NCBI GenBank assembly: GCA_009781815.1
Contig: WQVB01000001.1
Coordinates: 1 to 34,048, forward strand
DNA from: Defluviitaleaceae bacterium
GTDB lineage: Bacteria > Bacillota > Clostridia > Lachnospirales > WRAX01
DNA length: 34,048 nucleotides
Direction: 5' to 3'
The notes beneath the pieces were generated by a model. That model was not told the origin of the DNA, did no database searches, and saw only the letters and a program-made list of their open reading frames with translations. Made by a program: the position numbers and the translations under genes. Shown piece by piece: positions 3,810 through 34,048 of the stretch (the stretch's first letter is position 1; each line of letters starts with the position of its first letter).

Positions 3810-3989
3810 CCCTACCGTCATCCCGTGCCCTCACAGTTCGTCATCCTGAGCCCTTGGTCTTCCTGCTGTCGCAGGCAGAAGGGTAAGACTTGACTCAGGA
3901 TCTAATTGGAGAAGGGCAGGCTTAGTTGGGTGTCCACTATCATACATAGATCCTGAGTCAAGCTCAGGATGACGACTAGGAAGGGTGGG
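3810..3989. repeat. Composite repeat locus B: F1 unit (3840-3973) with a 38-nt F2 insertion in its left hairpin
   Basis: GTCATCCTGAG[CCCTTGGTCTTCCTGCTGTCGCAGGCAGAAGGGTAAGA]CTTGACTCAGGATC, then the conserved spacer, then GATCCTGAGTCAAGCTCAGGATGAC. It lies between the DUF512 stop and the der start. Confidence 0.85.
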
Positions 3990-4001
3990 ATGAGGTCATT
4001 A

Positions 4002-6130: not shown

Positions 6131-6280
6131 CCACTAGTCATCCCAATTTGCTCATCTATCGTTGTAGGGAAGGGATTTATCCCTTCCGACATTATTGGAT
6201 TATCACTCACTAATCCTTCAGATAGGCAAGGCGGAGTGGATGAATCCACTCCCTACAAGGTTAAACTAAATTGACGTCAT
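6131..6280. repeat. Family F3 palindromic unit (core 6164-6256) with outer arms
   Basis: GTAGGGAAGGGATTTATCCCTTCCG, a 43-nt spacer, then CGGAGTGGATGAATCCACTCCCTAC. Outer GTCATCCCAATTTG / CAAGGTTAAACTAAATTGACGTCAT arms are related to those at 17018-17146, 18838-19032 and 23824-24010. Confidence 0.85.
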
Positions 6281-6380
6281 CCTGAGCTTGACTCAGGATC
6301 TATGTATGATAGTGGATGCCCAACTAAGCCTGTCCTGCTCCAATTAGATCCTGAGTCAAGCTCAGGATGACAACTAAGGA
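6276..6380. repeat. Family F1 palindromic unit (cleanest copy)
   Basis: GTCATCCTGAGCTTGACTCAGGATC, spacer CTATGTATGATAGTGGATGCCCAACTAAGCCTGTCCTGCTCCAATTAG, then GATCCTGAGTCAAGCTCAGGATGAC. It abuts the yraN stop codon. Confidence 0.9.
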
Positions 6381-6746
6381 TCATTCCCCAAAAACATTCT
6401 CTATATGCTCAATCTCCAAAACCTCTCGCCCAAAAACACTTAAAACATCAAAACGGCAGGCTGCATCCCACTTTTTCTCTTCATAAAGGTAGGCCTTTGC
6501 CGTCTTCACAATTCTTTTTTGCTTAGCACGGGTTATAGCCTCTAGCCCATCACCAAAGCCAGCACCACGGCGATATTTAACCTCTATAAAAACAATATAC
6601 TCCCCATCTTGGGCTATTATATCAATTTCTCCATCATATTTTTTGTAGTTTTGCTTTAAAATTTCATACCCCTTGCCTTGCAAGTAGCCAAGCACAACCG
6701 CCTCGCCATAATTGCCCTTATCTTTGTTAGCATCCACCTCAATCAC
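6381..6746 (-). CDS. yraN: YraN family (UPF0102) endonuclease-like protein
   Basis: 121 aa with the GEIDIIA....VFIEVKYR...G motif typical of UPF0102. Confidence 0.85.
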   Translation of the reverse strand: MIEVDANKDKGNYGEAVVLGYLQGKGYEILKQNYKKYDGEIDIIAQDGEYIVFIEVKYRRGAGFGDGLEAITRAKQKRIVKTAKAYLYEEKKWDAACRFDVLSVFGREVLEIEHIENVFGE

Positions 6747-9910: not shown

Positions 9911-9931
9911 CTCTCCGATCTTCCCCTCAAT

Positions 9932-10052
9932 CCCTCCTAAGTCGTCATCCCGTGCTTGACACGGGATCTATGTATGATAGTGGACAACCTCAACTAGGAC
10001 TGCCCTTCTCCAATTAGATCCCGTGTCAAGCACGGGATGACGACTTAGGGGA
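9932..10052. repeat. Family F1 unit, CCCGTG/CACGGG stem variant
   Basis: CCTAAGTCGTCATCCCGTGCTTGACACGGGATC, the conserved spacer, then GATCCCGTGTCAAGCACGGGATGACGACTTAGG. Both hairpins carry the compensated stem. Confidence 0.9.
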
Positions 10053-10136
10053 GTTTAATGCCTTTTAGTTTTACTACAAGCCTAATGACGAAAGGTAGAG
10101 CGTTAGTCGAAATGGCAAGAGGGGCTGGGATGGTAA

Positions 10137-10796: not shown

Positions 10797-10945
10797 AAAA
10801 ACCCTCCTAAGCGTGATAATCAGCTAGGAGGTGAATTTAAAAAATAAAAAAGCACCAGCTTCCCTTCGGCAGCATTATCTGCATCAGGTTATAAGGGTAT
10901 TTCTCAGCCTCTACATAAGTAGCAGCACCCCTAGCTTTATAGTTG
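10797..10945 (-). promoter_or_regulatory. TPP (THI-box) riboswitch with expression platform
   Basis: Minus-strand RNA reads GCUAGGGGUGCUGC..GGCUGAGAAAUACCCUUAUAACCUGAUGCAGAUAAUGCUGCCGAAGGGAAG, which contains the conserved CUGAGA, ACCUGAU and AGGGAA blocks. The downstream CACCUCCUAGC can pair with the SD UAGGAGG of thiT. Confidence 0.9.
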
Positions 10946-11813: not shown

Positions 11814-11848
11814 CCGTCAAGTATGTAGGCGTGTACAAACCCAAGTGT

Positions 11849-12017
11849 CGTCATCCTGAGCCCTTGGTCTTCCTTCTGCCTGCGGCAGCAGGAAGACCAA
11901 GGGCTCAGGATGACGACTTAGGGAGGTTGAGAGGCTGCTTCGCTACAAGTCTATGCGGGCTTGATCCGCAATGACGATGTGAGTGCAAATCGGAATGACG
12001 TGAGCACGGGATGACGA
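11849..12017. repeat. Composite repeat locus E: 67-nt perfect long hairpin (F1 stem plus complete F2 palindrome), then F4 and F3-arm fragments
   Basis: CGTCATCCTGAGCCCTTGGTCTTCC (11849-11873) and GGAAGACCAAGGGCTCAGGATGACG (11891-11915) form a 25-bp perfect stem. ATGCGGGCTTGATCCGCAAT follows at 11953-11972. The locus lies between convergent gene ends. Confidence 0.85.
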
Positions 12018-12036
12018 CAGGTATAATAGACTTTGT

Positions 12037-12865: not shown

Positions 12866-12985
12866 CCCTCCCTACCGTCATCCTGAAGCTTGACTCAGGA
12901 TCTAATTGGAGAAGTAGACAGCCCTAATCAAGGTATGCACTACCCCACATAGATCCTGAGTCAAGCTCAGGATGACGGTAGGGGA
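12866..12985. repeat. Family F1 unit (reverse orientation)
   Basis: CCTACCGTCATCCTGAAGCTTGACTCAGGATC, spacer CTAATTGGAGAAG...CACATAG, then GATCCTGAGTCAAGCTCAGGATGACGGTAGG. Confidence 0.9.
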
Positions 12986-13065
12986 GATTCATGATGGCGA
13001 CTAGAGAGTCGCAATGATACTAGATAAGCATGTTAAGGGCAGCAAGCCAAGAAAGCCGAAAAGTA

Positions 13066-16950: not shown

Positions 16951-17017
16951 AATAGCCCTCCATATATTATTGTGATTTAGTAACTTTACTCGCCATGCTG
17001 CATCAAGCCCGTAGCAC

Positions 17018-17146
17018 GCCATTCCAATTTACCCATGTAGGGAATGGATTTATCCATTCCGTTTCATCTTGCTGAAGTATAGAAAGGTGCAGACCTAATA
17101 GCGGAATGGATAAATCCATTCCCTACAAAGAGAATTGGGATGACGT
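17018..17146. repeat. Family F3 unit with outer arms
   Basis: GTAGGGAATGGATTTATCCATTCCG (17037-17061), a 40-nt spacer, then CGGAATGGATAAATCCATTCCCTAC (17102-17126). The outer arm is ..GAATTGGGATGACG. Confidence 0.9.
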
Positions 17147-17166
17147 TTATGAGTATTCCCATCATT

Positions 17167-18837: not shown

Positions 18838-19032
18838 CTGTCATCCCGTGTCAAGCACTCAAGCACGGAACACGTCAATCTAATTTGGAATTTTTGCCAC
18901 TGTAGGAAACGCATTTATGCGTTCCGCATTGCCTTGTTGAAGGATAAAAAGGTGCAAATTCAATAGCGGAATGGATAAATCCATTCCCTACAAGGTCAAA
19001 TTAGATTGGCGTGAGTACGTGATGAGGAGCGA
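18838..19032. repeat. Composite repeat locus H: F3 unit (18902-18991) nested in CGTCAATCTAATTTGG / CAAATTAGATTGGCG arms, themselves inside a split CCCGTG-type hairpin
   Basis: The left F3 hairpin is GGAAACGCATTTATGCGTTCC (compensated stem). The right one is GGAATGGATAAATCCATTCC. Confidence 0.85.
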
Positions 19033-19886: not shown

Positions 19887-20074
19887 ATTGCGGATCAAGT
19901 CAGCTAATAAACCTGTTGTTGAGTCGACCCCCTAAGTCGTCATCCTGAGCCCTTGGTCTTCCTGCTGCCGCAGGCAGAAGGGTAAGACTTGACTCAGGAT
20001 CTAATTGGAGGAGGACAAGCCTAGTTGGGTATGCACTATCATACATAGATCCCGTGTCAAGCATGGGATGACGA
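19887..20074. repeat. Composite repeat locus I: F4 half-hairpin remnant plus F1 unit (19939-20072) with the same 38-nt F2 insertion as locus B
   Basis: GTCATCCTGAG[CCCTTGGTCTTCCTGCTGCCGCAGGCAGAAGGGTAAGA]CTTGACTCAGGATC ... GATCCCGTGTCAAGCATGGGATGAC. The track ORF 19900-20097 is a translation of this repeat. Confidence 0.85.
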
Positions 20075-20089
20075 TGTAATACGATAGTG

Positions 20090-22962: not shown

Positions 22963-23040
22963 AATAACTTCCTCCTTGTTATATGTCGTTGTAAACCTTT
23001 AACTTCCATCATTAGATTCCTTGGCAAAGCAGCACTCCAC

Positions 23041-23147
23041 TATCGTCATCCTGAGCTTGACTCAGGATCTAATTAGAGAAGGGCACTCCTAATTAGGGTA
23101 CGCACTATCCCACATAGATCCTGAGTCAAGCTCAGGATGACGAGTAG
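23041..23147. repeat. Family F1 unit overlapping the 3' end of tmk
   Basis: GTCATCCTGAGCTTGACTCAGGATC, spacer CTAATTAGAGAAGGGCACTCC...CCACATAG, then GATCCTGAGTCAAGCTCAGGATGAC. The tmk stop codon (23089-23091) lies in the spacer. Confidence 0.9.
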
Positions 23148-23775
23148 GTAATAGCCCATCTATATATTTTTTTATTTCCTCATGTATTTTATCCACTGCC
23201 ATCATAGCATCAACGGTTACTATCTTATCGTCTTCTTCTGCCAGCTTTTTATACCCCAGCCACACCTTTTCGTGATATTCGATACCCTTTTCTTCTATTC
23301 TATCAAGGGCTTCTTGCTCCACTTTTCTTTTTAAGCCCTCTTTAGGGTTAATGTCTAAAAAGATGGTGGCATCAGGCGTCAAGCCTTCTGTTGCAAAGTT
23401 GTTAATATATTTTAAATTATCAACATCAAGCTGCCCTGCATAGCCTTGATAAGCAAAGGTAGACATTGCAAACCTATCACACAATATAATATAACCCTTG
23501 CTAAGGTGAGGCTTAATAAAATCCGCAATAAGTTGAGCTCTGGCAGCAAAGTATAAAAGGCTCTCTGTCTCGGCTGTCATGGCGGCGTTTTTTTTGTCTT
23601 TTAAAATGCCTCGTATAGCTTCAGATATAGGGTTGCCCCCAGGCTCACGAGTAACAATAACATTATGACCAAGGCTTGATAGATATTCAAAAAGCATCTG
23701 TATTTGAGTGCTTTTGCCAGCACCCTCGCCACCTTCAAAAACTATAAAGATTTTAAGCCCCCCTCTCAAAGACAT
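23089..23775 (-). CDS. tmk: Thymidylate kinase; last ~18 codons are encoded by repeat DNA
   Basis: P-loop FEGGEGAGKST, DRF motif (CDRFAMST) and the LID region. The start is tentatively ATG 23775 (MSLRGGLKIF...). The C-terminal RHPELDSGSMWDSAYPN is a translation of the F1 unit. Confidence 0.85.
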   Translation of the reverse strand: MSLRGGLKIFIVFEGGEGAGKSTQIQMLFEYLSSLGHNVIVTREPGGNPISEAIRGILKDKKNAAMTAETESLLYFAARAQLIADFIKPHLSKGYIILCDRFAMSTFAYQGYAGQLDVDNLKYINNFATEGLTPDATIFLDINPKEGLKRKVEQEALDRIEEKGIEYHEKVWLGYKKLAEEDDKIVTVDAMMAVDKIHEEIKKYIDGLLPTRHPELDSGSMWDSAYPN

Positions 23776-23823: not shown

Positions 23824-24152
23824 ACCCCTAAGTCGTCATCCTCATCTCACGTCAATCTAATTTGGAACTTTTACCATTGTAGGGAACCCTGAATCAAGTT
23901 CAGGGCAGGCTCCTTTATGCGTTCCGCCTTGTCTCTCTGAAGGATAAAAAGGTGCAAACCCAATAACGGAATGGATAAATCCATTCCCTACAAGGTTAAA
24001 TTAGATCGACATTTCCCGTGCTTGACATGAGATTTATGTGGGTTAGTTCATATCCTAATTAAGGCTGCCCTTCCCTAATTAGATCCTGAGTCAAGCTCAG
24101 GATGACGACTTGGAAGGGTTGAGTGGCGTTTCGCTACAAGTCTAATGACGTG
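23824..24152. repeat. Composite repeat locus K: F3 unit (23879-23991) carrying an inserted CCCTGAA-TCAAG-TTCAGGG hairpin, a degenerate F1 unit (24012-24106), and a GCTACAAGTCTAATGACG fragment
   Basis: Direct reading. Outer arms are CCTAAGTCGTCATCC (23827-) and GGATGACGACTTGG (-24113). Confidence 0.85.
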
Positions 24153-26170: not shown

Positions 26171-26455
26171 GTCATCAGACCTGTAGCGAAACGACCCTAA
26201 GTCGTCATCCTGAGCTTGACTCAGGATCTAACTGGAGAAGGACGCAGCCCTAAAATATGGCATGCACTACCCCATGTAGATCCTGAGTCAAGCTCAGGAT
26301 GACGTAAGGGGGCACAGTTTTGCTACAGGTCTATTGCGGGCCCTTGGTTGAGCTTGGTTTTAAGCGAAACTTGATCCGCAATCCCCTTTCTAGTCTGAAT
26401 AATTCAGGAAGGAAGGGGATCCTGAATCAAACCTTGCCAAGGGTTCAGGATGACA
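26171..26455. repeat. Composite repeat locus L (last one in the window): F1 unit (26204-26303) inside AGACCTGTAGCGAAAC / GTTTTGCTACAGGTCT arms, then F4 hairpin with a 30-nt insertion (26333-26382), then CCTGAA/TTCAGG hairpin with a 12-nt palindromic insertion
   Basis: Direct reading of inverted repeats. Details are in the findings. Confidence 0.85.
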
Positions 26456-26494
26456 TTGTCAACGCTATTTGGCCACTCTTTTAAATAAACCCTA

Positions 26495-27675: not shown

Positions 27676-27891
27676 TTAAATCGAGGCTTTTAGGAGTTCA
27701 TCTACATATTCTATAGCTTTCTGTTTGCTGTCGCCCGTCAATTTTGAAAAATTTCTATAGAAAACTTGGCTTTTCTCTATCTCTTCATCAGCAAGGTCTA
27801 TGGCGTTATAATTTAAGGATATGTTGCCTTTTTCGTGCTCTACAGCTTCGTGGCAAGCCGCCATCAGCTCATCAAATAATTCTTTTTCCAT
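27676..27891 (-). CDS. Hypothetical 71-aa acidic protein
   Basis: The start is taken as MEKELFDELMAACHEAVEHEKG... because the track's upstream ATG lies inside the terminator hairpin at 27912-27941. No family was recognised. Confidence 0.4.
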   Translation of the reverse strand: MEKELFDELMAACHEAVEHEKGNISLNYNAIDLADEEIEKSQVFYRNFSKLTGDSKQKAIEYVDELLKASI

Positions 27892-27911
27892 ATTATAACC
27901 ATCCCTACAAT

Positions 27912-27941
27912 AAAAACTCGACATATTTATGCCGAGTTTTT
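27912..27941 (-). terminator. Hairpin terminator after the YbjQ-like gene
   Basis: AAAAACTCG (27912-27920) pairs with CGAGTTTTT (27933-27941), with a 12-nt loop and T/A runs on both sides. Confidence 0.5.
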
Positions 27942-27943
27942 AT

Positions 27944-28183
27944 TTACACAAATCTAACAGCCGTACCTGTGGCTAAAATACATCTACCATCACCCACAAA
28001 AGAATAGCGAATGTTTATAACGGCATCTGCTCTCATCTCTTTTGCTTTTTCTTCTATATTTGTATTTACTTTACCTATAATCTTGTCAAGGTCAAAACGC
28101 AAGCCAGCTAGATAACTTCCATTTACAATGCCTATAGTTTCAAGGTTTTTACCTGTTACAAAATCCGTGTTCACTAAAATCAT
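27944..28183 (-). CDS. YbjQ/UPF0145-family protein, unusually short
   Basis: MILVNTDFVTGKNLETIGIVNG...ADAVINIRYSF....ILATGTAV matches both ends of the UPF0145 fold, but the middle is shortened. AGGAGA lies 6 nt before ATG 28183. Confidence 0.55.
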   Translation of the reverse strand: MILVNTDFVTGKNLETIGIVNGSYLAGLRFDLDKIIGKVNTNIEEKAKEMRADAVINIRYSFVGDGRCILATGTAVRFV

Positions 28184-28185
28184 GA

Positions 28186-28536
28186 TCATTCTCCTTTTCG
28201 CAATATTTTATCCATAGCCTTGCCCTTGGCAAGCTCATCTATTAATTTGTCTAATTGGCGGATTTTTTGCATTAGCGGCTCTTCAATCTCCTCTATGCGA
28301 TAGCCACAAATAACGCCCCTTATAAGGTGGGCGTTAGGGTGTAATTGAGGGGCGTTGGCAAAAAAATCCTCAAAAGTGGTTTGGTTGTCCATTGTAACTT
28401 GCAAGGCATTAGTATCATAACCCGTCAACCATGTGATAATCTCGTCAACTTCGCCTTTTGTTCGCCCATTTTTCTCGGCCTTTGTTATGTAGTGAGGGTA
28501 GAGATACTCGCATAGCTTACGCACCCAATAAATCAA
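28186..28536 (-). CDS. DUF2200-family protein (no ATG; TTG start without SD, possibly 5'-truncated)
   Basis: [29 protein letters not shown] is the DUF2200 core. The only in-frame start is TTG 28536. The upstream frame is open but lacks an ATG or a ribosome-binding site. Confidence 0.55.
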
Positions 28537-28605: not shown

Positions 28606-28932
28606 ATGAGCCAAGCAACCAACAACCATACTGTTTTTGCTGAAACACCAGCCGCCGAATATTTATCAAAATACGGCATGATGCGACGCAACTACCTCGA
28701 AGAATATCAGCCTGACCTTTACGCCGAACTGCTTCGCAATGGGGAGCTGAAATCCCATTGCTTAGAAATTCAGCAAATAGCCGAAAACAGGCTTAAAAAC
28801 ATGATGAGGCAATTTGCAACTCATAACCCACCCCCAAACCGCAACACAGATGGGCTTGCGTGGGCTGCTCATATGAGTATGCTCAAGCGTTCAGTTGAGG
28901 AAATTATCTTTGTGGAGCTGATTTACGAATAA
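28606..28932 (+). CDS. tnpV: TnpV-family transposon-associated protein (Tn4451/Tn4453 type)
   Basis: ATG 28606 has GGAGG 8 nt upstream. YLEEYQPDLYAELLRNGELKSHCLEIQQIAENRL...GLAWAAHMSMLKRSVEEIIFVELIY follows the TnpV pattern (LL.SG.L..YL.....A....; W...MN.I......I...E.I). Confidence 0.65.
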   Translation: MSQATNNHTVFAETPAAEYLSKYGMMRRNYLEEYQPDLYAELLRNGELKSHCLEIQQIAENRLKNMMRQFATHNPPPNRNTDGLAWAAHMSMLKRSVEEIIFVELIYE

Positions 28933-28965: not shown

Positions 28966-29005
28966 AAGAAAACGCTATCAGCCGAAAAGCCGATAGCGTT
29001 TTTTG
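28966..29005. terminator. Bidirectional rho-independent terminator between tnpV and the helicase gene
   Basis: AACGCTATCaGC-CGAAAA-GCcGATAGCGTT, flanked by AAAGAAAA on the left and TTTTTT on the right. Confidence 0.75.
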
Positions 29006-29010
29006 GTGTG

Positions 29011-32000
29011 TTATGAATCATCTCTCAGATAATACTCGCTCAAACGCTTATAGTGTTCAGGGATTTCAATGCCATTGTCGTGGGCATATCTATATTCCCA
29101 ACGAGTTCCGCACTCGTACTTCTGTGAAAATGCCCTAAGTTCATTCCAAGTACGAACTGCGCTTAAATCTTGTTGCTTTGCTTCATTCAATCGTCGCTTG
29201 TGTTCGTTGATAACATCGGTTTGGACTTTGAGTTTGCCATCTGATTCTTCTGTAACAAAACCTCGTTTTTCTAACCATCTAAGTGCAATTTCAAATCTTT
29301 CTTTGATAACCGCACCTTGCCGTTGCCAACCATAACCATATAAAGCTGTGTCCTTGAATAGTCCTGTTTTATCAAGTCCGAAGTCTGATTGAAGCACGTT
29401 AAACATTGTGTTTATTGTATCATTTGCGGGTATGTCCTTCATTTGACTTCCGTAGTATTTCGACCTTACGGCAATTACTTTTTGACGAGCACCTTCTCTT
29501 GCGCTTTCATGAGCTGTTTGGGTGCTGACATCTAAAAAATCGGAGGCCTTGGCGGTCGGCACAGAAGAAGCAGGCATAACTTCACGATACCCATCAATGG
29601 CATTTTGAACAGCTTCCAATAATCGCGCTCCCTCGGTATGGCGGTCTTTTATCCAGTCGGTAGACCAAATACGATAAATTTTCCAGCCCATATCTTCAAG
29701 TACGGTTTGGCGAAGCCTGTCACGCTCTCTTGCCGTTCGTGCGGAGTGATACATCGCACCATCACACTCAATTCCAATGGCAAACCTTCCGTTGTATTTA
29801 GGGTGCTTAACAGCCATATCAATGCGATACCCAGAACAGCCAATTTGCGTGGCTACATCATAACCGTGACTGGTAAGGAACTCATGTACCGACACTTCAA
29901 ATGGCGAATCAAACCACAAATCATCACTTGTCGAAATTTCTCCAAGTATAGCCTGTTCACCGTTTATAGCAAAGTCGATATACTGTCGTAATAGTTTGGG
30001 ACCAAGGCTATTAACACGATCAGCAGCTATGTCTGTAGGCAAAATCGACCCAACAAGTTTTAAGTTATATCTCGCCCTTGTAACTGCAACGTTAAGTCTG
30101 CGTTCACCGCCATTACGACTTAATGGCCCAAAATTCATAGCAAATTTTCCTGTAATATCAGGAGCATAACCTATACTAAAAATTATTGTGTCGCGCTCGT
30201 CACCTTGAACTGTTTCGAGATTCTTAATAAATAAAGATTCCTCTTCGCCCTCCTTGAAAAATACTTCGAAGTCCCAATTTTTACGGCGTTTTTCTTCAAT
30301 CGCTTCCGTGATGGCAGCTTCTTGAACTTTTCCGAAGGCAATGATACCCAGACTTCTCTCAGGGCTTGTTCGAAAATGTTCAAAAACAAGTTCAGCTATT
30401 TTTTCTGCTTCGGCTCTATTACCGTTTTTCCCGCCTTTATCGTAAGTTCCACCAACTACATGAATATATTCAACACCCATACCACTAACTTTTTCGGAAG
30501 CAGATGGAAAAGTGGTTAGGGTACTTTGATATATTTTGGCGTTAGAAAATGCAATTAAATGTTCATGACGGCTTCGATAATGCCAAAGGAGTGTTTGTGA
30601 GGGTAACATTGATGCTTCTTCTAACAATGATTCGTATGCTCCTGTATCGTCAACTTCGCCATCTTCATCTTCCTCGTATTCATCGGATGTTGACAACGAG
30701 GATGTAAAGAAATCCGTTGGTGGTAACTGCTTACTATCACCTGCTATAATTACTTGCTTTGCTCTGAAAATTGCACCTATCGCATCTTCCGTCCGCACCT
30801 GTGATGCTTCGTCAAAAATAACAACATCAAATTCATAATTGCTATTGCCGAGATACGTGCTTATGGATAGCGGTGACATCATAACACAAGGCTTTAAGGC
30901 AGGAAGAAGATTGGGCAAATTAGCAATTAGCAGCCGTGTGGGCATCAATTTTCGCTGTTTTGCCATTTCACGGCGCAATAAAGCAATTTCACCGTTTGCT
31001 GAAAAGGCATCAAAATTAGGCAAGCGTGAAATTAGCTTGGAAAACACCATTGCTTTTGAAATTTCTAAATGCTGCTTGTCAAGGTCACGGAATAGAGCAA
31101 CCCTTTCATCTTGCCTTAAACGCCTAAAATCATGGATTGATGAATACTTAGGTATAACCGCATCTAACCACGAACGGAAAAAGCATTTTTTGAAGATTGG
31201 TACAATTTCTTCGGCTGTCAACTCGAGTTCCTTTGCTTTTTCGAGGTACGAATCAATGCTTAAATCGGCAAGCCATTTTTCTGCAATCCTAAAGTCTATA
31301 AGATACTCCAAACTCGCAAAGTTTTCCTTGCAGTTTTGCAAGGTTTCCATGAGCTTAGCCAAAACATAGTACCGTAAACCTTGTTTAGCTTCAAACAACT
31401 GCGCAAACTTGTCAAACGAAGGCATAGTTGCAATTTGCCAATTGCGAAGATTTGATATGTTTTCGTCCATCGAATTTCGGAGTTCATCGTTGTTTTCTGA
31501 AACTAATTTAATGAAACGTGACCCTAAACTATATTCTTTAACAAACTGCTTCATTTGGCCACACCATTCCAAATCAAATTTCAACTTAGAAAAATCAGTC
31601 TGGTCGTTAATGACAATGCCGAGAAACATAGCAAAATCCTTGTTTCGGTCTTGCATGGTGCTTTCATTTTTAGCCAGTTGAGAGCGATACCCCGATTCTG
31701 CTTGCTCCATAGCTGTAAAAAGCAATTGACGAGCGAATGCAAAATTGCTTTCAGCATTTGTCTTAGCGGAGCGGAAACCCGGTTCTGTATTTGTTATAGC
31801 AAACAATAGCCCCTCAATGCTTTCATTATAGGCAGACTTAACAGAAGCCAATAAATTCACATAGTCCGACAAATCCTGTTCGGCCTTTGCCATTTCTAAT
31901 TCGTCGGATTTATGCTTGGCTTCGGCATTAACAACGGTCTTTGTCTGCAACTCAAAGGCATTTTTCTTTAATAGGGCATCATTCGCATTATCAAGCAAAG

Positions 32001-34048
32001 ATAACCCTTCATCATAAGTTAATTTTGAAGCTGTTTTGCAGAACGCCAAAATAGCCTTTCTGTCCTTTCCATATTGCCCAATCAAGCGCGAGAGCATAGA
32101 GCGATACTGAACCCTATACCGCCCCAACATTGCCGGCAAATCCAATGAGAGCAGACCTAAATCAAAGTTTGAAGATAAGGCATCACGTGCGGCTTCCCAC
32201 GATTGCTTTGCCGCTTCTAATAAATCGGTTTCAGTAGCAAGCTGAGAACCACTTTGCACATGGCGAGCTTGCGCTGCTTTGCTTGTTTTTTCAATCCCAT
32301 CTTGTTGAACAGCTATATCGTTGAGCCGTTGCAACGCTTCGTTATATATAAAAGCCGTGTCGGAGTCCAAAACACTATCGTTTATTGCACGGTTAGCTTC
32401 AATATTGTCCTTTATCGTATTAGTGGCAGAAATAAAAGTGTCAAATTCATTTGTGGCCATCGCCAACGCCTTTAGCGAAACGTTATAACCTTCAATATGA
32501 TTTGATACTGAAGCGTTCGTTGTGTAAATTTCATTGCTTGTATTGACCGATGCTTTAATGCTATCAAAATCTGCTAAAGCAGCTTCGAGCGTTGACTTCG
32601 CTTCATTTCTTGCTAAACGAGCAGATTCACAGATTTCAAGCGTCCCATTCGCTTCGTTCAAATCTAAGGAAACCCATAGTGAAGGAAAAACAGGAGATGT
32701 TTTTGCAAAATTAAATAGCTCTTGGATTTCTGCAATGCTAAACAAACCCCACGAATAGTCGGAGTCTAAAATTTGATTTGTAGTAGAAAATAAAACCTTG
32801 CCTTCTTGAAGCTGATTCATAAATTGCTCAGAATCAACAATAAACCGTTGCCTAAACTCATGCGTTGGTGGCTGTGCCAATATACAGCCATTCCAAGGGT
32901 TGTTTTCTTGATAACCACTCTTTGACACAATTCTGGTAACTTCTTCGAGTGCGCTCTCGCAACCAGCCAATAGGGACGGAGTAAAGTTTTCTGCGTTTTC
33001 CTGAATAAAATCAATGTTGCGGTAATTATCAAACTTTGCTAAATGGCCTGTCACTTGATAAATTGTTTTGCCAAGTGGTTCAACAATCGTGTGTAACTCT
33101 ACGCTGTATTGATTCAAGTTCTTCCGAACATCCTTCAGCCGATATAGGATGTTGTAGGCAGATTGTTGTATGTTCGCCTTTTGACGTGACATTTTTACGG
33201 CTTTGTCGAGTTGTTCAAGAATATCTCTACGCTTGGCTGTGTGGCTATGTAGCGTCAGACAAAACGATGCCAACCCCACATTCGTCAGCCGTTTATAAAC
33301 AACTTCGAGTGCAGCCATTTTTTCGGATACAAATAATACTTTTTTGCCATCAGCAATAAGTTCGGCAATCATATTCGTTATGGTCTGGCTTTTTCCAGTA
33401 CCCGGGGGTCCTTGCAACACAAAACTCGCACCACGCTTAGCAAGCAATATGGCATCTTGCTGGCTTGAATCGGCATCAACAACAGAAAATACATCTTGTG
33501 GTTCTGTATTGTCATGGCTATATGTGCCAATGTCGGACACATCGGCTCCATCACGTAAAACTTCGCCGTTTAATGTTCTCACAATATGGTGGTTGCTGAT
33601 TTTATCAGCATTGCGCTCAATATCAAGGTACATATTTATTTTCATAAACGAAAACATTGAAAGTTGAGATGCGTCGTTTGTAACAGTCCAGCCCAACGAA
33701 GCAACGGCTTGTTCGACATTATCAAGATAATCTGAAAGCTCCATATCTTCATTAAATGTCGGCAAAATGATACCAAAATCGCCAAGTAATTTTTGAGCTA
33801 ACGAATGGTTGGCATTTATTTCTTGTTCGGAGCGCGATAATATTATAGGTGAAAATAAATCCTCTTGTGAAAGTTTAACTGGCAATAAAAGAAGAGGGGA
33901 ACGAATTTCTTGCCCCTCTGTGCCGTTTTCTGCCCAATTAAGAAAACCAAAAGCCAAGTGAAGTGCATTTAACCCTTTTTCCTCGGTAAACTCACGTGAT
34001 TTTTTCATTAGGCTACGAAGAGTTTTATGTGCTTCCTTTGGAACTTGG
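29011..34048 (-). CDS. DUF4011-type Upf1-like SF1 helicase fused to a Vsr/DUF559-like endonuclease and DUF3320-like C-terminal region; N-terminus beyond the right edge
   Basis: The frame is still open at 34047 (..QVPKEAHKTLRSLMKKSREF..), giving at least 1678 aa. Motifs: GFLNW..LLLLPV, Walker A GPPGTGKSQ, Walker B FDEASQ, WHYRSRHEHLI, VQGDERD, NVAVTRAR, then YRIDMAV..IECDG..YH...........DR.R...L...GW...RIWSTDW. Confidence 0.85.
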   Translation of the reverse strand, partial: QVPKEAHKTLRSLMKKSREFTEEKGLNALHLAFGFLNWAENGTEGQEIRSPLLLLPVKLSQEDLFSPIILSRSEQEINANHSLAQKLLGDFGIILPTFNEDMELSDYLDNVEQAVASLGWTVTNDASQLSMFSFMKINMYLDIERNADKISNHHIVRTLNGEVLRDGADVSDIGTYSHDNTEPQDVFSVVDADSSQQDAILLAKRGASFVLQGPPGTGKSQTITNMIAELIADGKKVLFVSEKMAALEVVYKRLTNVGLASFCLTLHSHTAKRRDILEQLDKAVKMSRQKANIQQSAYNILYRLKDVRKNLNQYSVELHTIVEPLGKTIYQVTGHLAKFDNYRNIDFIQENAENFTPSLLAGCESALEEVTRIVSKSGYQENNPWNGCILAQPPTHEFRQRFIVDSEQFMNQLQEGKVLFSTTNQILDSDYSWGLFSIAEIQELFNFAKTSPVFPSLWVSLDLNEANGTLEICESARLARNEAKSTLEAALADFDSIKASVNTSNEIYTTNASVSNHIEGYNVSLKALAMATNEFDTFISATNTIKDNIEANRAINDSVLDSDTAFIYNEALQRLNDIAVQQDGIEKTSKAAQARHVQSGSQLATETDLLEAAKQSWEAARDALSSNFDLGLLSLDLPAMLGRYRVQYRSMLSRLIGQYGKDRKAILAFCKTASKLTYDEGLSLLDNANDALLKKNAFELQTKTVVNAEAKHKSDELEMAKAEQDLSDYVNLLASVKSAYNESIEGLLFAITNTEPGFRSAKTNAESNFAFARQLLFTAMEQAESGYRSQLAKNESTMQDRNKDFAMFLGIVINDQTDFSKLKFDLEWCGQMKQFVKEYSLGSRFIKLVSENNDELRNSMDENISNLRNWQIATMPSFDKFAQLFEAKQGLRYYVLAKLMETLQNCKENFASLEYLIDFRIAEKWLADLSIDSYLEKAKELELTAEEIVPIFKKCFFRSWLDAVIPKYSSIHDFRRLRQDERVALFRDLDKQHLEISKAMVFSKLISRLPNFDAFSANGEIALLRREMAKQRKLMPTRLLIANLPNLLPALKPCVMMSPLSISTYLGNSNYEFDVVIFDEASQVRTEDAIGAIFRAKQVIIAGDSKQLPPTDFFTSSLSTSDEYEEDEDGEVDDTGAYESLLEEASMLPSQTLLWHYRSRHEHLIAFSNAKIYQSTLTTFPSASEKVSGMGVEYIHVVGGTYDKGGKNGNRAEAEKIAELVFEHFRTSPERSLGIIAFGKVQEAAITEAIEEKRRKNWDFEVFFKEGEEESLFIKNLETVQGDERDTIIFSIGYAPDITGKFAMNFGPLSRNGGERRLNVAVTRARYNLKLVGSILPTDIAADRVNSLGPKLLRQYIDFAINGEQAILGEISTSDDLWFDSPFEVSVHEFLTSHGYDVATQIGCSGYRIDMAVKHPKYNGRFAIGIECDGAMYHSARTARERDRLRQTVLEDMGWKIYRIWSTDWIKDRHTEGARLLEAVQNAIDGYREVMPASSVPTAKASDFLDVSTQTAHESAREGARQKVIAVRSKYYGSQMKDIPANDTINTMFNVLQSDFGLDKTGLFKDTALYGYGWQRQGAVIKERFEIALRWLEKRGFVTEESDGKLKVQTDVINEHKRRLNEAKQQDLSAVRTWNELRAFSQKYECGTRWEYRYAHDNGIEIPEHYKRLSEYYLRDDS

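What the first reader, a model, noticed from the sequence alone, without database searches (positions are those of the whole stretch)
29011..34048. Giant DUF4011-type helicase fused to a Vsr/DUF559-like nuclease beside an orphan TnpV: candidate single-gene defence system, incomplete in the window
One uninterrupted minus-strand ORF runs from 29011 to the window edge. The frame is still open at 34047, so the N-terminus and any upstream partner genes are missing. Seen directly, in order along the protein: a DUF4011-like LNALHLAFGFLNW..LLLLPV segment; Walker A VLQGPPGTGKSQT (about 33388-33411); a ~750-aa mostly helical insert; Walker B VVIFDEASQ (about 30800-30828); Upf1-like motifs WHYRSRHEHLIAFSN, VQGDERDTIIFS and RRLNVAVTRAR; then YRIDMAVKHP..IGIECDGAMYHSARTARERDRLRQTVLEDMGWKIYRIWSTDW (Vsr/DUF559-type PD-(D/E)xK module, about 29640-29910); a DUF3320-like stretch; and a final ~75 aa (..RTWNELRAFSQKYECGTRWEYRYAHDNGIEIPEHYKRLSEYYLRDDS) that I cannot assign. 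Helicase plus Vsr-like nuclease fusions of this kind were, as I recall, reported as the single-gene anti-phage system Hhe (Gao et al. 2020), and they also resemble Mokosh-type helicase-nuclease proteins. That link rests on remembered domain architecture, not on a search. The context fits horizontally acquired DNA: TnpV next door, lower GC by eye, and none of the host-specific repeats.
Basis: partly seen in the sequence, partly recalled or inferred. Interest (0 to 1): 0.7.

Follow-up and report, generated by a model that had tools for sequence, protein, structure and literature searches.

The report
Hhe-like helicase-nuclease defence gene, truncated
The window ends inside a very large gene for a helicase fused to a DNA-cutting enzyme; it belongs to a catalogued family of candidate one-protein anti-phage defences and sits on DNA the host appears to have acquired, so it is a real but fairly ordinary defence-island gene.

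Summary
About 90-115 N-terminal residues are missing.

Domain order:
- partial DUF4011
- SF1B (Upf1-like) helicase, with RecA1 split by a ~750-aa helical coiled-coil arm
- MTES_1575/Vsr-like nuclease
- winged-helix domain (not DUF3320)
- an orphan ~70-aa tail

The best family match is PADLOC candidate PDC-S37 (1218 bits). It also hits NCBIfam ProA (1121 bits, cutoff 1500) and Hhe (807 bits, cutoff 2000), both below cutoff. It is therefore a sister clade of the tested Hhe, not Hhe itself. Mokosh similarity is limited to the helicase core.

Relatives lie next to recombinases, relaxases, IS elements, R-M genes, ThsB, PDC-S01 and PDC-S02. The host's intergenic repeats stop at ~26.43 kb. GC content is not lower here.

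Four of the closest relatives carry a YhcG-like nuclease gene, three of them directly upstream, so a partner gene beyond the window edge cannot be excluded.

Verdict: a new member of a known, mostly untested kind of defence protein. Interest is about 0.3.

The parts
29011..34047 (-). ORF for the helicase-nuclease: 1,678 codons plus a TAA stop at 29011-29013. It is open at the window edge, with about 90-115 N-terminal residues missing.
33787..34041 (-). C-terminal half of the DUF4011 domain (aa 3-87; LNALHLAFGFLNW...LLLLPV).
   Evidence: Pfam PF13195, E=7e-21, profile positions 74-158 of 158
33109..33471 (-). N-terminal part of helicase RecA1 (AAA_11, aa 193-313). It holds a Q-like motif (SSQQDA), Walker A GPPGTGKS (33388-33411) and motif Ia.
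   Evidence: residues invariant in 66 homologues
30928..33180 (-). All-helical insert of about 750 aa (aa ~290-1040) within RecA1. The proximal parts are conserved. The two variable arms (aa 458-633 and 685-822) flank a length-invariant apex module (aa 633-685, YRxxYRS).
   Evidence: AF2 model, pLDDT 76.9, with helices up to 75 residues; arm lengths covary, r=0.78; low-TM Foldseek hits to SMC, MukB and Rad50
30799..30825 (-). Walker B / motif II: VVIFDEASQ (aa 1075-1083).
30046..30609 (-). Helicase RecA2 (AAA_12, aa 1147-1334) with WHYRSRHE, TVQGDERD and RRLNVAVTRAR.
   Evidence: Pfam E=2.4e-15; Foldseek hits to SETX, IGHMBP2, Sen1, Dna2 and Upf1; PDB sequence hits
29611..29901 (-). MTES_1575 / Vsr-like PD-(D/E)xK nuclease (aa 1383-1479). 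D1410, E1427 and D1429 are conserved.
   Evidence: Pfam E=1.3e-36; AF2 plus Foldseek: I-Bth0305I 3r3p TM 0.80, NGO0050 3hrl TM 0.74; invariant columns
29224..29514 (-). Conserved winged-helix-like domain (aa ~1512-1608).
   Evidence: AF2 pLDDT above 95, three or four helices plus a beta hairpin; Foldseek hits to Hel308 WH, MarR and Rpa2 WH; no Pfam hit
29014..29223 (-). Lineage-specific C-terminal tail (aa ~1609-1678), modelled as three helices. Function unknown.
   Evidence: absent from aligned homologues; only one genuine match among 1.84 billion representative proteins; absent from related loci
28969..29004 (.). Hairpin (CGCTATC...GATAGCG) flanked by an A-run and a T-run, between the convergent TnpV and helicase genes. 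Probably a bidirectional terminator.
   Evidence: read directly from the sequence; the consensus scan did not flag it
28606..28932 (+). TnpV-family gene, convergent with the helicase. It is an incidental neighbour and a marker of mobile DNA.
   Evidence: Pfam PF14198, E=1.4e-19; never adjacent to the helicase in relatives
26190..26430 (.). Last copy of the host's dispersed intergenic palindromic repeats. It marks the likely left border of the repeat-free, acquired segment.
   Evidence: independent metagenome contigs of the same organism break at 26432-26483

Best explanation
The ORF encodes most of a protein of about 1,770-1,790 aa. The domain order is: DUF4011 domain; SF1B (Upf1/Dna2-like) helicase whose first RecA domain is split by a long antiparallel coiled-coil arm with a conserved apex module; Vsr-like PD-(D/E)xK endonuclease (MTES_1575); winged-helix domain; and a short lineage-specific tail.

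It belongs to the DUF4011 helicase-nuclease superfamily, which includes the tested anti-phage proteins Hhe and (by NCBI's naming) ProA. Its best match is PADLOC's candidate single-gene system PDC-S37. It lies on a repeat-free, apparently acquired segment of a Bacillota chromosome, downstream of the tmk-darA-holB cluster.

Likely mechanism (inferred, not shown): the protein stays latent until phage or plasmid DNA replication or processing intermediates appear. The DUF4011, winged-helix and coiled-coil parts engage that DNA. ATP hydrolysis then drives 5'-to-3' translocation on single-stranded DNA, the polarity usual for SF1B helicases. The tethered Vsr-like nuclease cuts the DNA, blocking replication of the invader and possibly damaging the host.

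Shown here: the intact ORF, the domain order, intact catalytic motifs conserved across 66 homologues, the family matches, and the genomic contexts of relatives. Inferred: the defence function, the trigger, the translocation polarity and the role of the arm.
For: Family matches:
- PADLOC PDC-S37 scores 1218 bits, covering profile positions 99-592 and 655-1481 of 1550; Hhe scores 597 bits.
- NCBIfam ProA scores 1121 bits in one colinear stretch (aa 5-1614); Hhe scores 807 bits.
- Pfam finds DUF4011, AAA_11, AAA_12 and MTES_1575.

Conservation and structure:
- All helicase motifs and the nuclease residues D1410, E1427 and D1429 are invariant or nearly so in 66 homologues.
- The structure models match SETX, IGHMBP2, Sen1, Dna2 and Upf1 for the helicase core, and I-Bth0305I and NGO0050 for the nuclease.

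Contexts of relatives:
- serine recombinases, HsdR, a methyltransferase and Mrr
- IS110 and a relaxase
- a serine recombinase
- a ThsB TIR protein at 328 bits, PDC-S01, PDC-S02 and a DpdF/GajB-like helicase
- MobA/MobL
- 554 plasmid records carry relatives
- distribution is patchy across at least six bacterial phyla plus a methanogen

Local context: host repeats stop at 26.43 kb, and TnpV is adjacent.

Literature on the nearest tested relative, Hhe:
- It protects against lambda, T3, T7 and PhiV-1, and a mutation in its Vsr domain (E1731A) abolishes defence (bioRxiv 10.1101/2022.06.16.496414).
- T7 DNA-metabolism genes and Bas63 g40 behave as triggers (bioRxiv 10.1101/2024.10.10.617714).
Against: - No member of this clade, and as far as I could find no PDC-S37 member, has been tested. 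I found no paper on PDC-S37 or ProA in the library.
- Scores fall below both NCBIfam equivalog cutoffs, for the window protein and for full-length relatives.
- A DUF4011 gene is a core gene, present in every isolate, in Pseudomonas aeruginosa (PMC10250203). So not every family member need be a mobile defence gene.
- GC content gives no sign of foreign origin.
- The N-terminus, promoter and upstream neighbour are not in the window.
- The overall fold of the helicase model is uncertain (pTM 0.37), and residues 1108-1186 are modelled with low confidence.
Confidence: 0.7

Rival explanations
1. It is half of a two-gene module. A YhcG/DUF1016 PDDEXK nuclease gene (PADLOC PDC-S02) lies just upstream, beyond the window edge, and works together with the helicase-nuclease.
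For: A co-oriented YhcG-like gene ends 22-51 nt before the helicase start in three of the closest relatives: L004/P0001 (67% identity), L092 (72%) and L093 (67%). A fourth locus, L103, carries one too, about 2 kb downstream of a helicase fragment. Downstream genes differ between these loci (ThsB, DUF2130, MobA/MobL). The YhcG proteins are 60-70% identical to each other, a divergence similar to that of the helicases.
Against: The gene is absent upstream in L089 (the closest relative, 79%), L120, L094, P0021, P0006 and P0015. PDC-S02 is itself listed as a stand-alone candidate, so the adjacency may be defence-island neighbourhood inherited by descent. For the window itself this cannot be tested.
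Confidence: 0.2
2. It is a host DNA repair or recombination helicase-nuclease, a housekeeping function like Dna2 or AddAB-type end processing, or Vsr-type repair. It is not an immune protein.
For: The helicase core resembles Dna2, IGHMBP2 and SETX. The nuclease fold is that of Vsr repair enzymes. A DUF4011 gene is core in P. aeruginosa.
Against: Distribution is patchy, and the best relative in the protein database is only 67% identical (79% over the best segment of one metagenome locus). Close relatives sit on integrative, mobilisable or plasmid DNA among defence genes. Some relatives appear as broken ORFs. Here the gene lies in a segment without host repeats, next to TnpV.
Confidence: 0.08
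3. It is cargo that serves the mobile element carrying it, for example by excluding competing plasmids or ICEs or by stabilising the element, rather than protecting the host from phage.
For: Relatives are next to relaxases, MobA/MobL, serine recombinases and IS elements, and 554 plasmid records carry relatives. They are rare in phage genomes and viral contigs.
Against: The tested relative Hhe restricts phages. The two roles do not exclude each other, and no data here separate them.
Confidence: 0.1
4. It is a Mokosh-type system: an RNA helicase plus nuclease acting on phage transcripts.
For: Weak PADLOC hits to MkoA and MkoC (107 and 84 bits), and the Upf1-like helicase class is shared.
Against: The hits cover only the helicase core, against 1218 bits for PDC-S37. 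No PLD-type nuclease appears among the Pfam hits. The nuclease here is Vsr-like, a DNA-endonuclease fold.
Confidence: 0.02

Closest known systems
PADLOC candidate system PDC-S37 (single-gene 'phage defence candidate', model PDLC05009)
   Same: The best overall match: 1218 bits, E=0, covering profile positions 99-592 and 655-1481 of 1550. Full-length relatives score 1246-1300 bits. It appears to stand alone in most relatives.
   Different: PDC-S37 is a computational candidate, and I found no experimental paper on it. The window copy lacks its N-terminus and carries an extra ~70-aa tail. Its clade has the longest coiled-coil arm.
Hhe (Gao et al. 2020; NCBIfam NF042953; e.g. Klebsiella plasmid protein WP_021314612, 1911 aa)
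   Same: Same domain order: DUF4011, then a split SF1 helicase, then a Vsr-like nuclease. Identity is 35% over aa 3-356 and 38% over aa 971-1515. The IECDG nuclease motif and the acidic loop after motif III are shared. Hhe is a single-gene anti-phage protein whose Vsr-domain mutant loses defence.
   Different: It scores 807 bits against a 2000-bit cutoff. The ~600-aa insert does not align. Hhe has roughly 100 more residues at the N-terminus and a different, longer C-terminus. No DUF3320 is detectable here.
ProA ('anti-phage protein ProA', NCBIfam NF058533, equivalog)
   Same: The top NCBIfam hit. One colinear alignment runs through the insert to the winged-helix domain (aa 5-1614 against profile positions 455-1846 of 1903).
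   Different: It scores 1121 bits, and full-length relatives 1152-1199 bits, all below the 1500-bit cutoff. Relatives start at profile position ~357, so this clade lacks ProA's N-terminal extension of about 350 residues. I could not trace the primary literature on ProA.
SF1B Upf1-like helicases and the helicase-nuclease Dna2 (SETX/Sen1, IGHMBP2, Upf1, Aquarius)
   Same: The RecA1/RecA2 core and motifs match by sequence and by fold. Like Dna2, it pairs a helicase with a PD-(D/E)xK nuclease in one chain.
   Different: The nuclease is C-terminal and of the Vsr type. RecA1 carries a 750-aa coiled-coil insert. The DUF4011 and winged-helix modules have no counterpart.
SMC/Rad50/MukB-type ATPases (resemblance in topology only)
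   Same: The ATPase is split by a long antiparallel coiled coil with a conserved apex. Foldseek lists Smc5/6, condensin, MukB, JetC and Rad50. Arm lengths covary.
   Different: TM scores are 0.05-0.12 with very high rmsd. The ATPase here is a RecA-type helicase, not an ABC-type head. No homology is implied.

Membership tests
Hhe (NCBIfam NF042953 / PADLOC PDLC02194) | Score at or above the curated equivalog cutoff (2000 bits) | tested here: not met
   807 bits for the window protein; 775-903 bits for five full-length relatives
Hhe (NCBIfam NF042953 / PADLOC PDLC02194) | DUF4011, then SF1 helicase (AAA_11/AAA_12), then Vsr-like nuclease, in one polypeptide | tested here: met
   Pfam hits in that order; aligned blocks against Klebsiella Hhe
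Hhe (NCBIfam NF042953 / PADLOC PDLC02194) | Full-length colinear similarity, including the inter-motif insert and C-terminus (many annotated relatives carry DUF3320) | tested here: not met
   The insert (aa 357-970) does not align by BLASTP; no DUF3320 at E<=10
Hhe (NCBIfam NF042953 / PADLOC PDLC02194) | Anti-phage phenotype that depends on the nuclease residue | not testable with these tools
   Known only for E. coli Hhe. The presumed equivalent Glu of IECDG is E1427 here; this equivalence is an inference.
ProA (NCBIfam NF058533) | Score at or above the curated equivalog cutoff (1500 bits) | tested here: not met
   1120.8 bits for the window protein; 1146-1314 bits for five full-length relatives
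ProA (NCBIfam NF058533) | N-terminal region of about 350-450 residues before the DUF4011 core | tested here: not met
   P0021 residue 4 aligns to profile position 357. Relatives have only about 90-115 aa before the window's first residue. The window itself is truncated.
ProA (NCBIfam NF058533) | Colinear match through the helicase, insert, nuclease and C-terminal domain | tested here: met
   A single stretch, aa 5-1614 against profile positions 455-1846 of 1903
PADLOC PDC-S37 (candidate single-gene system) | Strong match to model PDLC05009 over most of its length | tested here: met
   1218 bits; profile positions 99-592 plus 655-1481 of 1550. PADLOC's own coverage and system rules were not run.
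PADLOC PDC-S37 (candidate single-gene system) | Acts alone, with no conserved partner gene | tested here: inconclusive
   No partner is shared across relatives. Four of the closest carry a YhcG-like gene, three of them immediately upstream. The upstream region is outside the window.
Mokosh (MkoA/MkoC) | Match beyond the helicase core, and a PLD-type nuclease or the MkoB partner | tested here: not met
   107 and 84 bits, on the helicase core only. No PLD family appears among the Pfam hits.
SF1B Upf1-like helicase superfamily | Motifs Q, I, Ia, II, III, IV, V and VI, and a RecA1/RecA2 fold | tested here: met
   Motifs read directly and invariant in 66 sequences; PDB and Foldseek hits
Vsr/DUF559/MTES_1575 PD-(D/E)xK nucleases | Family HMM match, fold, and conserved acidic catalytic residues | tested here: met
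   PF18741 at 125 bits against a 38.2-bit cutoff; TM 0.80 to 3r3p; D1410 and D1429 invariant, E1427 at least 90% conserved

The most novel reading that the evidence does not exclude
This clade could be a third, untested branch of the DUF4011 helicase-nuclease immune proteins. In it, an SMC-like coiled-coil arm of adjustable length, with a conserved YRxxYRS apex, would act as the sensor or dimerisation device that gates a Vsr-type nuclease. In the window's lineage the protein would additionally work with an upstream YhcG-type nuclease, and its orphan C-terminal tail would serve as a lineage-specific regulatory or docking module.
Probability: 0.15. Interest if true: 0.55.

Novelty: new member of a known kind. 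Interest (0 to 1): 0.3.

Why it matters
No mechanism is known for Hhe-type helicase-nuclease proteins, although they are common: 554 plasmid records and more than 590 species genomes carried relatives in these scans. This copy adds a well-defined Bacillota clade that current curated equivalogs (Hhe, ProA) do not name.

The analysis yields a domain map that can be tested: a coiled-coil arm with a conserved apex, a winged-helix domain in place of DUF3320, and an orphan tail. It also flags a possible YhcG-type partner gene.

For annotating this genome, the practical result is simple. The gene is a probable defence gene on acquired DNA, cut off by the contig end.

Tried and rejected
Extending the gene beyond the window failed:
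- Exact DNA from the window edge was absent from genome contigs and metagenome contigs.
- Exact-protein look-ups of TnpV, DarA and the MFS gene found the same organism only as two shorter ENA contigs, L001/L125 and L003, which do not reach further.
- The first look-ups of TnpV and DUF2200 failed because I used the ORF tool's TTG starts.

Literature: five searches found no paper on 'PDC-S37' or on an anti-phage 'ProA'. The Druantia and modularity-network preprints were opened and were irrelevant.

Rejected readings:
- DUF3320: no Pfam hit.
- Mokosh: rejected.
- TnpV as a functional partner: rejected.
- Foreign GC signature: rejected.
- SMC-family homology: rejected as coiled-coil mimicry, given TM <=0.12.

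The tail:
- A weak Pfam DUF7296 hit (E=0.05) was treated as noise.
- Two of its three matches among the representative proteins were tandem-repeat artefacts.

Other points:
- No close solved structure exists.
- I did not identify the host species, because a further whole-database search did not seem justified.
Full report
**Observation**

The minus strand from 34047 down to 29011 translates into 1,678 sense codons followed by TAA, with no stop up to the window edge. Walker A GPPGTGKS falls at nt 33388-33411. VVIFDEASQ falls at 30799-30825. The YRIDMAV...STDW nuclease block falls at 29653-29829.

Pfam confirms DUF4011 (aa 3-87, matching only profile positions 74-158 of 158, so the domain is cut by the window edge). 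It also confirms AAA_11 (aa 193-313), AAA_12 (aa 1147-1334) and MTES_1575 (aa 1383-1479, E=1.3e-36, 125 bits against a 38.2-bit cutoff), plus a sub-threshold DUF559 hit on the same stretch.

Alignment with ten full-length relatives shows that only about 90-115 residues are missing at the N-terminus. The complete protein should therefore be about 1,770-1,790 aa.

Two side observations fail. GC in 29-34 kb is 0.39-0.43, no different from the window as a whole. No DUF3320 is detectable in the last 199 residues even at E<=10.

**Anatomy**

An AlphaFold2 model of aa 185-1345 (66-sequence alignment, mean pLDDT 76.9, pTM 0.37) shows a RecA1/RecA2 helicase core. RecA1 is interrupted between motif Ia and motif II by an all-helical insert of about 750 residues, with helices of up to 75 residues.

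Foldseek matches the core to SETX/Sen1, IGHMBP2, Aquarius, Dna2, Upf1 and nsp13, which are SF1B Upf1-like helicases. It gives only low-TM, high-rmsd matches to Smc5/6, condensin, MukB, JetC and Rad50. I read those as coiled-coil mimicry, not homology. A sequence search of the PDB finds the same helicase cores and no solved close relative.

Across 66 homologues, every segment of the insert has a nearly fixed length except two:
- aa 458-633 ranges from 63 to 181 residues.
- aa 685-822 ranges from 80 to 138 residues.

These two flank a module of invariant length (53-54 aa) carrying a YRxxYRS motif, and their lengths covary (r=0.78; the sequences are not independent). That is the pattern expected for the two strands of an antiparallel coiled-coil arm with a conserved apex. 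The window's clade has the longest arm.

A second model, aa 1340-1678 (pLDDT 83.9), shows three parts:
- The nuclease domain, with TM 0.80 to the I-Bth0305I catalytic domain 3r3p and 0.74 to NGO0050 3hrl.
- After a linker, a very confident winged-helix-like domain (aa ~1512-1608), with matches to Hel308 WH, MarR and Rpa2 WH.
- Three helices forming the tail.

The helicase motifs and the nuclease residues D1410, E1427 and D1429 are invariant or nearly so. This argues for an active enzyme under purifying selection.

**The tail**

The last ~70 residues are absent from almost all homologues, and two relatives carry unrelated tails instead. An exhaustive HMMER scan of 1.84 billion representative proteins found one genuine match: a 131-aa C-terminal fragment of a close relative, 71% identical. 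The other two matches were tandem-repeat artefacts. None of more than 120 related loci encodes the tail, apart from a contig of the same organism. Its function remains unknown.

**Family placement**

| Model | Score | Cutoff | Notes |
|---|---|---|---|
| PADLOC PDC-S37 (candidate single-gene system) | 1218 bits, E=0 | n/a | covers profile 99-592 and 655-1481 of 1550 |
| PADLOC Hhe | 597 bits | n/a | |
| PADLOC MkoA / MkoC | 107 / 84 bits | n/a | helicase core only |
| NCBIfam ProA | 1120.8 bits | 1500 | one colinear stretch |
| NCBIfam Hhe | 807 bits | 2000 | |

Full-length relatives also stay below both NCBIfam cutoffs. They align to ProA only from profile position ~357, so the clade lacks ProA's N-terminal extension.

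A direct comparison was made with a PGAP-annotated Hhe from a Klebsiella IncFIB plasmid (WP_021314612, 1911 aa). It gives 35% identity over aa 3-356 and 38% over aa 971-1515, with nothing alignable in the insert.

The protein is thus a sister clade of Hhe and ProA within one superfamily. It is already captured by PADLOC's candidate model. I could not find any paper describing PDC-S37 or ProA in the held library.

**Context in the window**

The left 26 kb is ordinary Bacillota chromosome: purL, yaaT/PSP1, holB, darA, tmk, then a TetR-MFS pair. It is peppered with a dispersed palindromic intergenic repeat family at about 12 sites. The last copy ends at ~26430, and none occurs in 26.45-34.05 kb.

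Two contigs of the same organism from an independent ENA assembly are 99.97% and 100% identical to the window. They break at exactly that point, 26432-26483.

The repeat-free segment carries a polysaccharide deacetylase, two small ORFs, DUF2200, TnpV and the helicase. TnpV and the helicase converge on a hairpin with flanking A- and T-runs at 28969-29004, probably a bidirectional terminator. I read this directly from the sequence; the consensus scan did not flag it. TnpV is not found next to the helicase in any relative.

**Context of relatives**

The best database relative is only 67% identical. JGI metagenomes give up to 79% over the best segment. Neighbours include:
- two large serine recombinases, HsdR, a methyltransferase and an Mrr fusion in Caproicibacterium
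- IS110 and a relaxase
- a serine recombinase
- a ThsB TIR protein (328 bits), PDC-S01 and a DpdF/GajB-like giant helicase
- MobA/MobL

Relatives occur in 554 plasmid records and in more than 590 species genomes across many phyla plus a methanogen. They are rare in phage genomes and IMG/VR. Several relatives appear as split ORFs. This is the pattern of a horizontally moving defence-island gene.

One caution: a DUF4011 gene is a core flank of a defence hotspot in P. aeruginosa (PMC10250203).

**A possible partner**

In L004, L092 and L093, three of the closest relatives, a co-oriented YhcG/DUF1016 PDDEXK nuclease gene ends 22-51 nt before the helicase start, while the downstream genes differ. 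A fourth locus, L103, also carries one, about 2 kb downstream of a helicase fragment. The YhcG proteins are 60-70% identical to one another.

PADLOC lists this family as the separate single-gene candidate PDC-S02. Other close relatives lack it. The corresponding position in the window lies beyond the edge, so 'single-gene' cannot be asserted for this copy.

**Mechanism**

The following are established for this copy:
- an intact ORF
- the domain order
- conserved catalytic motifs
- membership of the superfamily
- location on repeat-free DNA

The following are inferred from SF1B helicases and from Hhe:
- A mutation in the Hhe Vsr domain abolishes defence.
- T7 DNA-metabolism genes and Bas63 g40 act as Hhe triggers.

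From these I infer that the protein is activated by invader DNA replication or processing intermediates, translocates 5'-to-3' on DNA using ATP, and cuts DNA with the Vsr-like nuclease. The coiled-coil arm, apex, winged helix and DUF4011 would provide sensing, dimerisation or autoinhibition.

I give the defence reading about 0.7. A housekeeping repair role, a role serving the mobile element itself, and a two-gene variant are the rivals.

**Verdict**

The finding is real and correctly recognised in outline. It is not Hhe and not Mokosh. It is a new member of an already catalogued, largely untested family. It is novel only at the level of clade-specific features: the longest arm, the orphan tail and a possible YhcG partner. 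Interest is 0.3.

Noticed in passing
window 1590-26430 (e.g. 3837-3994, 6210-6396, 9929-10066, 11847-12018, 12876-12986, 17003-17147, 18871-19029, 19930-20079, 23035-23148, 23848-24131, 26189-26430): A dispersed family of composite palindromic intergenic repeats (core CGTCATCCTGAGCTTGACTCAGGATCTA, with companion modules) occupies nearly every intergenic gap of the left 26 kb and stops abruptly at ~26430. It looks REP/MITE-like. It also broke an independent metagenome assembly at 26432-26483.
   Followed up: partly
window 10844-10942 (-): A TPP riboswitch (Rfam RF00059, 71 bits against a 54.3-bit gathering score, E=3e-12).
   Followed up: no
L004:1-399, L092:1031-2221, L093:3029-4135, L103:3377-4471: A YhcG/DUF1016 PDDEXK nuclease gene (PADLOC PDC-S02), co-oriented with the helicase, lies 22-51 nt upstream of it in three of the closest relatives and about 2 kb downstream of a helicase fragment in L103. 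The copies are 60-70% identical to each other. The equivalent position in the window is off the edge.
   Followed up: partly
window 29014-29223 (-): An orphan C-terminal tail (RTWNELRAFSQKYECGTRWEYRYAHDNGIEIPEHYKRLSEYYLRDDS). Only one genuine match (P0121) was found among 1.84 billion representative proteins. Other relatives carry different tails, for example a zinc ribbon in P0008.
   Followed up: yes
window 31583-32674 (-), aa 458-822 of the ORF: The two variable segments of the insert change length together across homologues (r=0.78), around a length-invariant 53-54-aa YRxxYRS module. This suggests a coiled-coil arm of adjustable length with a conserved apex.
   Followed up: partly
window 30613-30687 (-), aa 1121-1145: A conserved acidic loop (DEYEEDEDGEVDD) followed by an invariant GAYxSLLxEA motif lies after helicase motif III. 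It is also present in Klebsiella Hhe. AlphaFold models it with low confidence. Its function is unknown.
   Followed up: no
window 27676-28189 (-): Two small ORFs lie in the repeat-free segment. The 82-aa ORF has no family hit. The 81-aa ORF has only a partial YbjQ_1 match (profile positions 63-102 of 103).
   Followed up: no
L043:1151-6925, L016:7396-12923, L093:4186-8775: In several genomes the homologous helicase-nuclease gene is split into 2-6 consecutive ORFs. This may reflect decay of the gene or assembly errors.
   Followed up: no
window 28969-29004: A hairpin with an A-run on one side and a T-run on the other lies between the convergent TnpV and helicase genes. It is probably a bidirectional terminator. 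The consensus scan missed it.
   Followed up: partly
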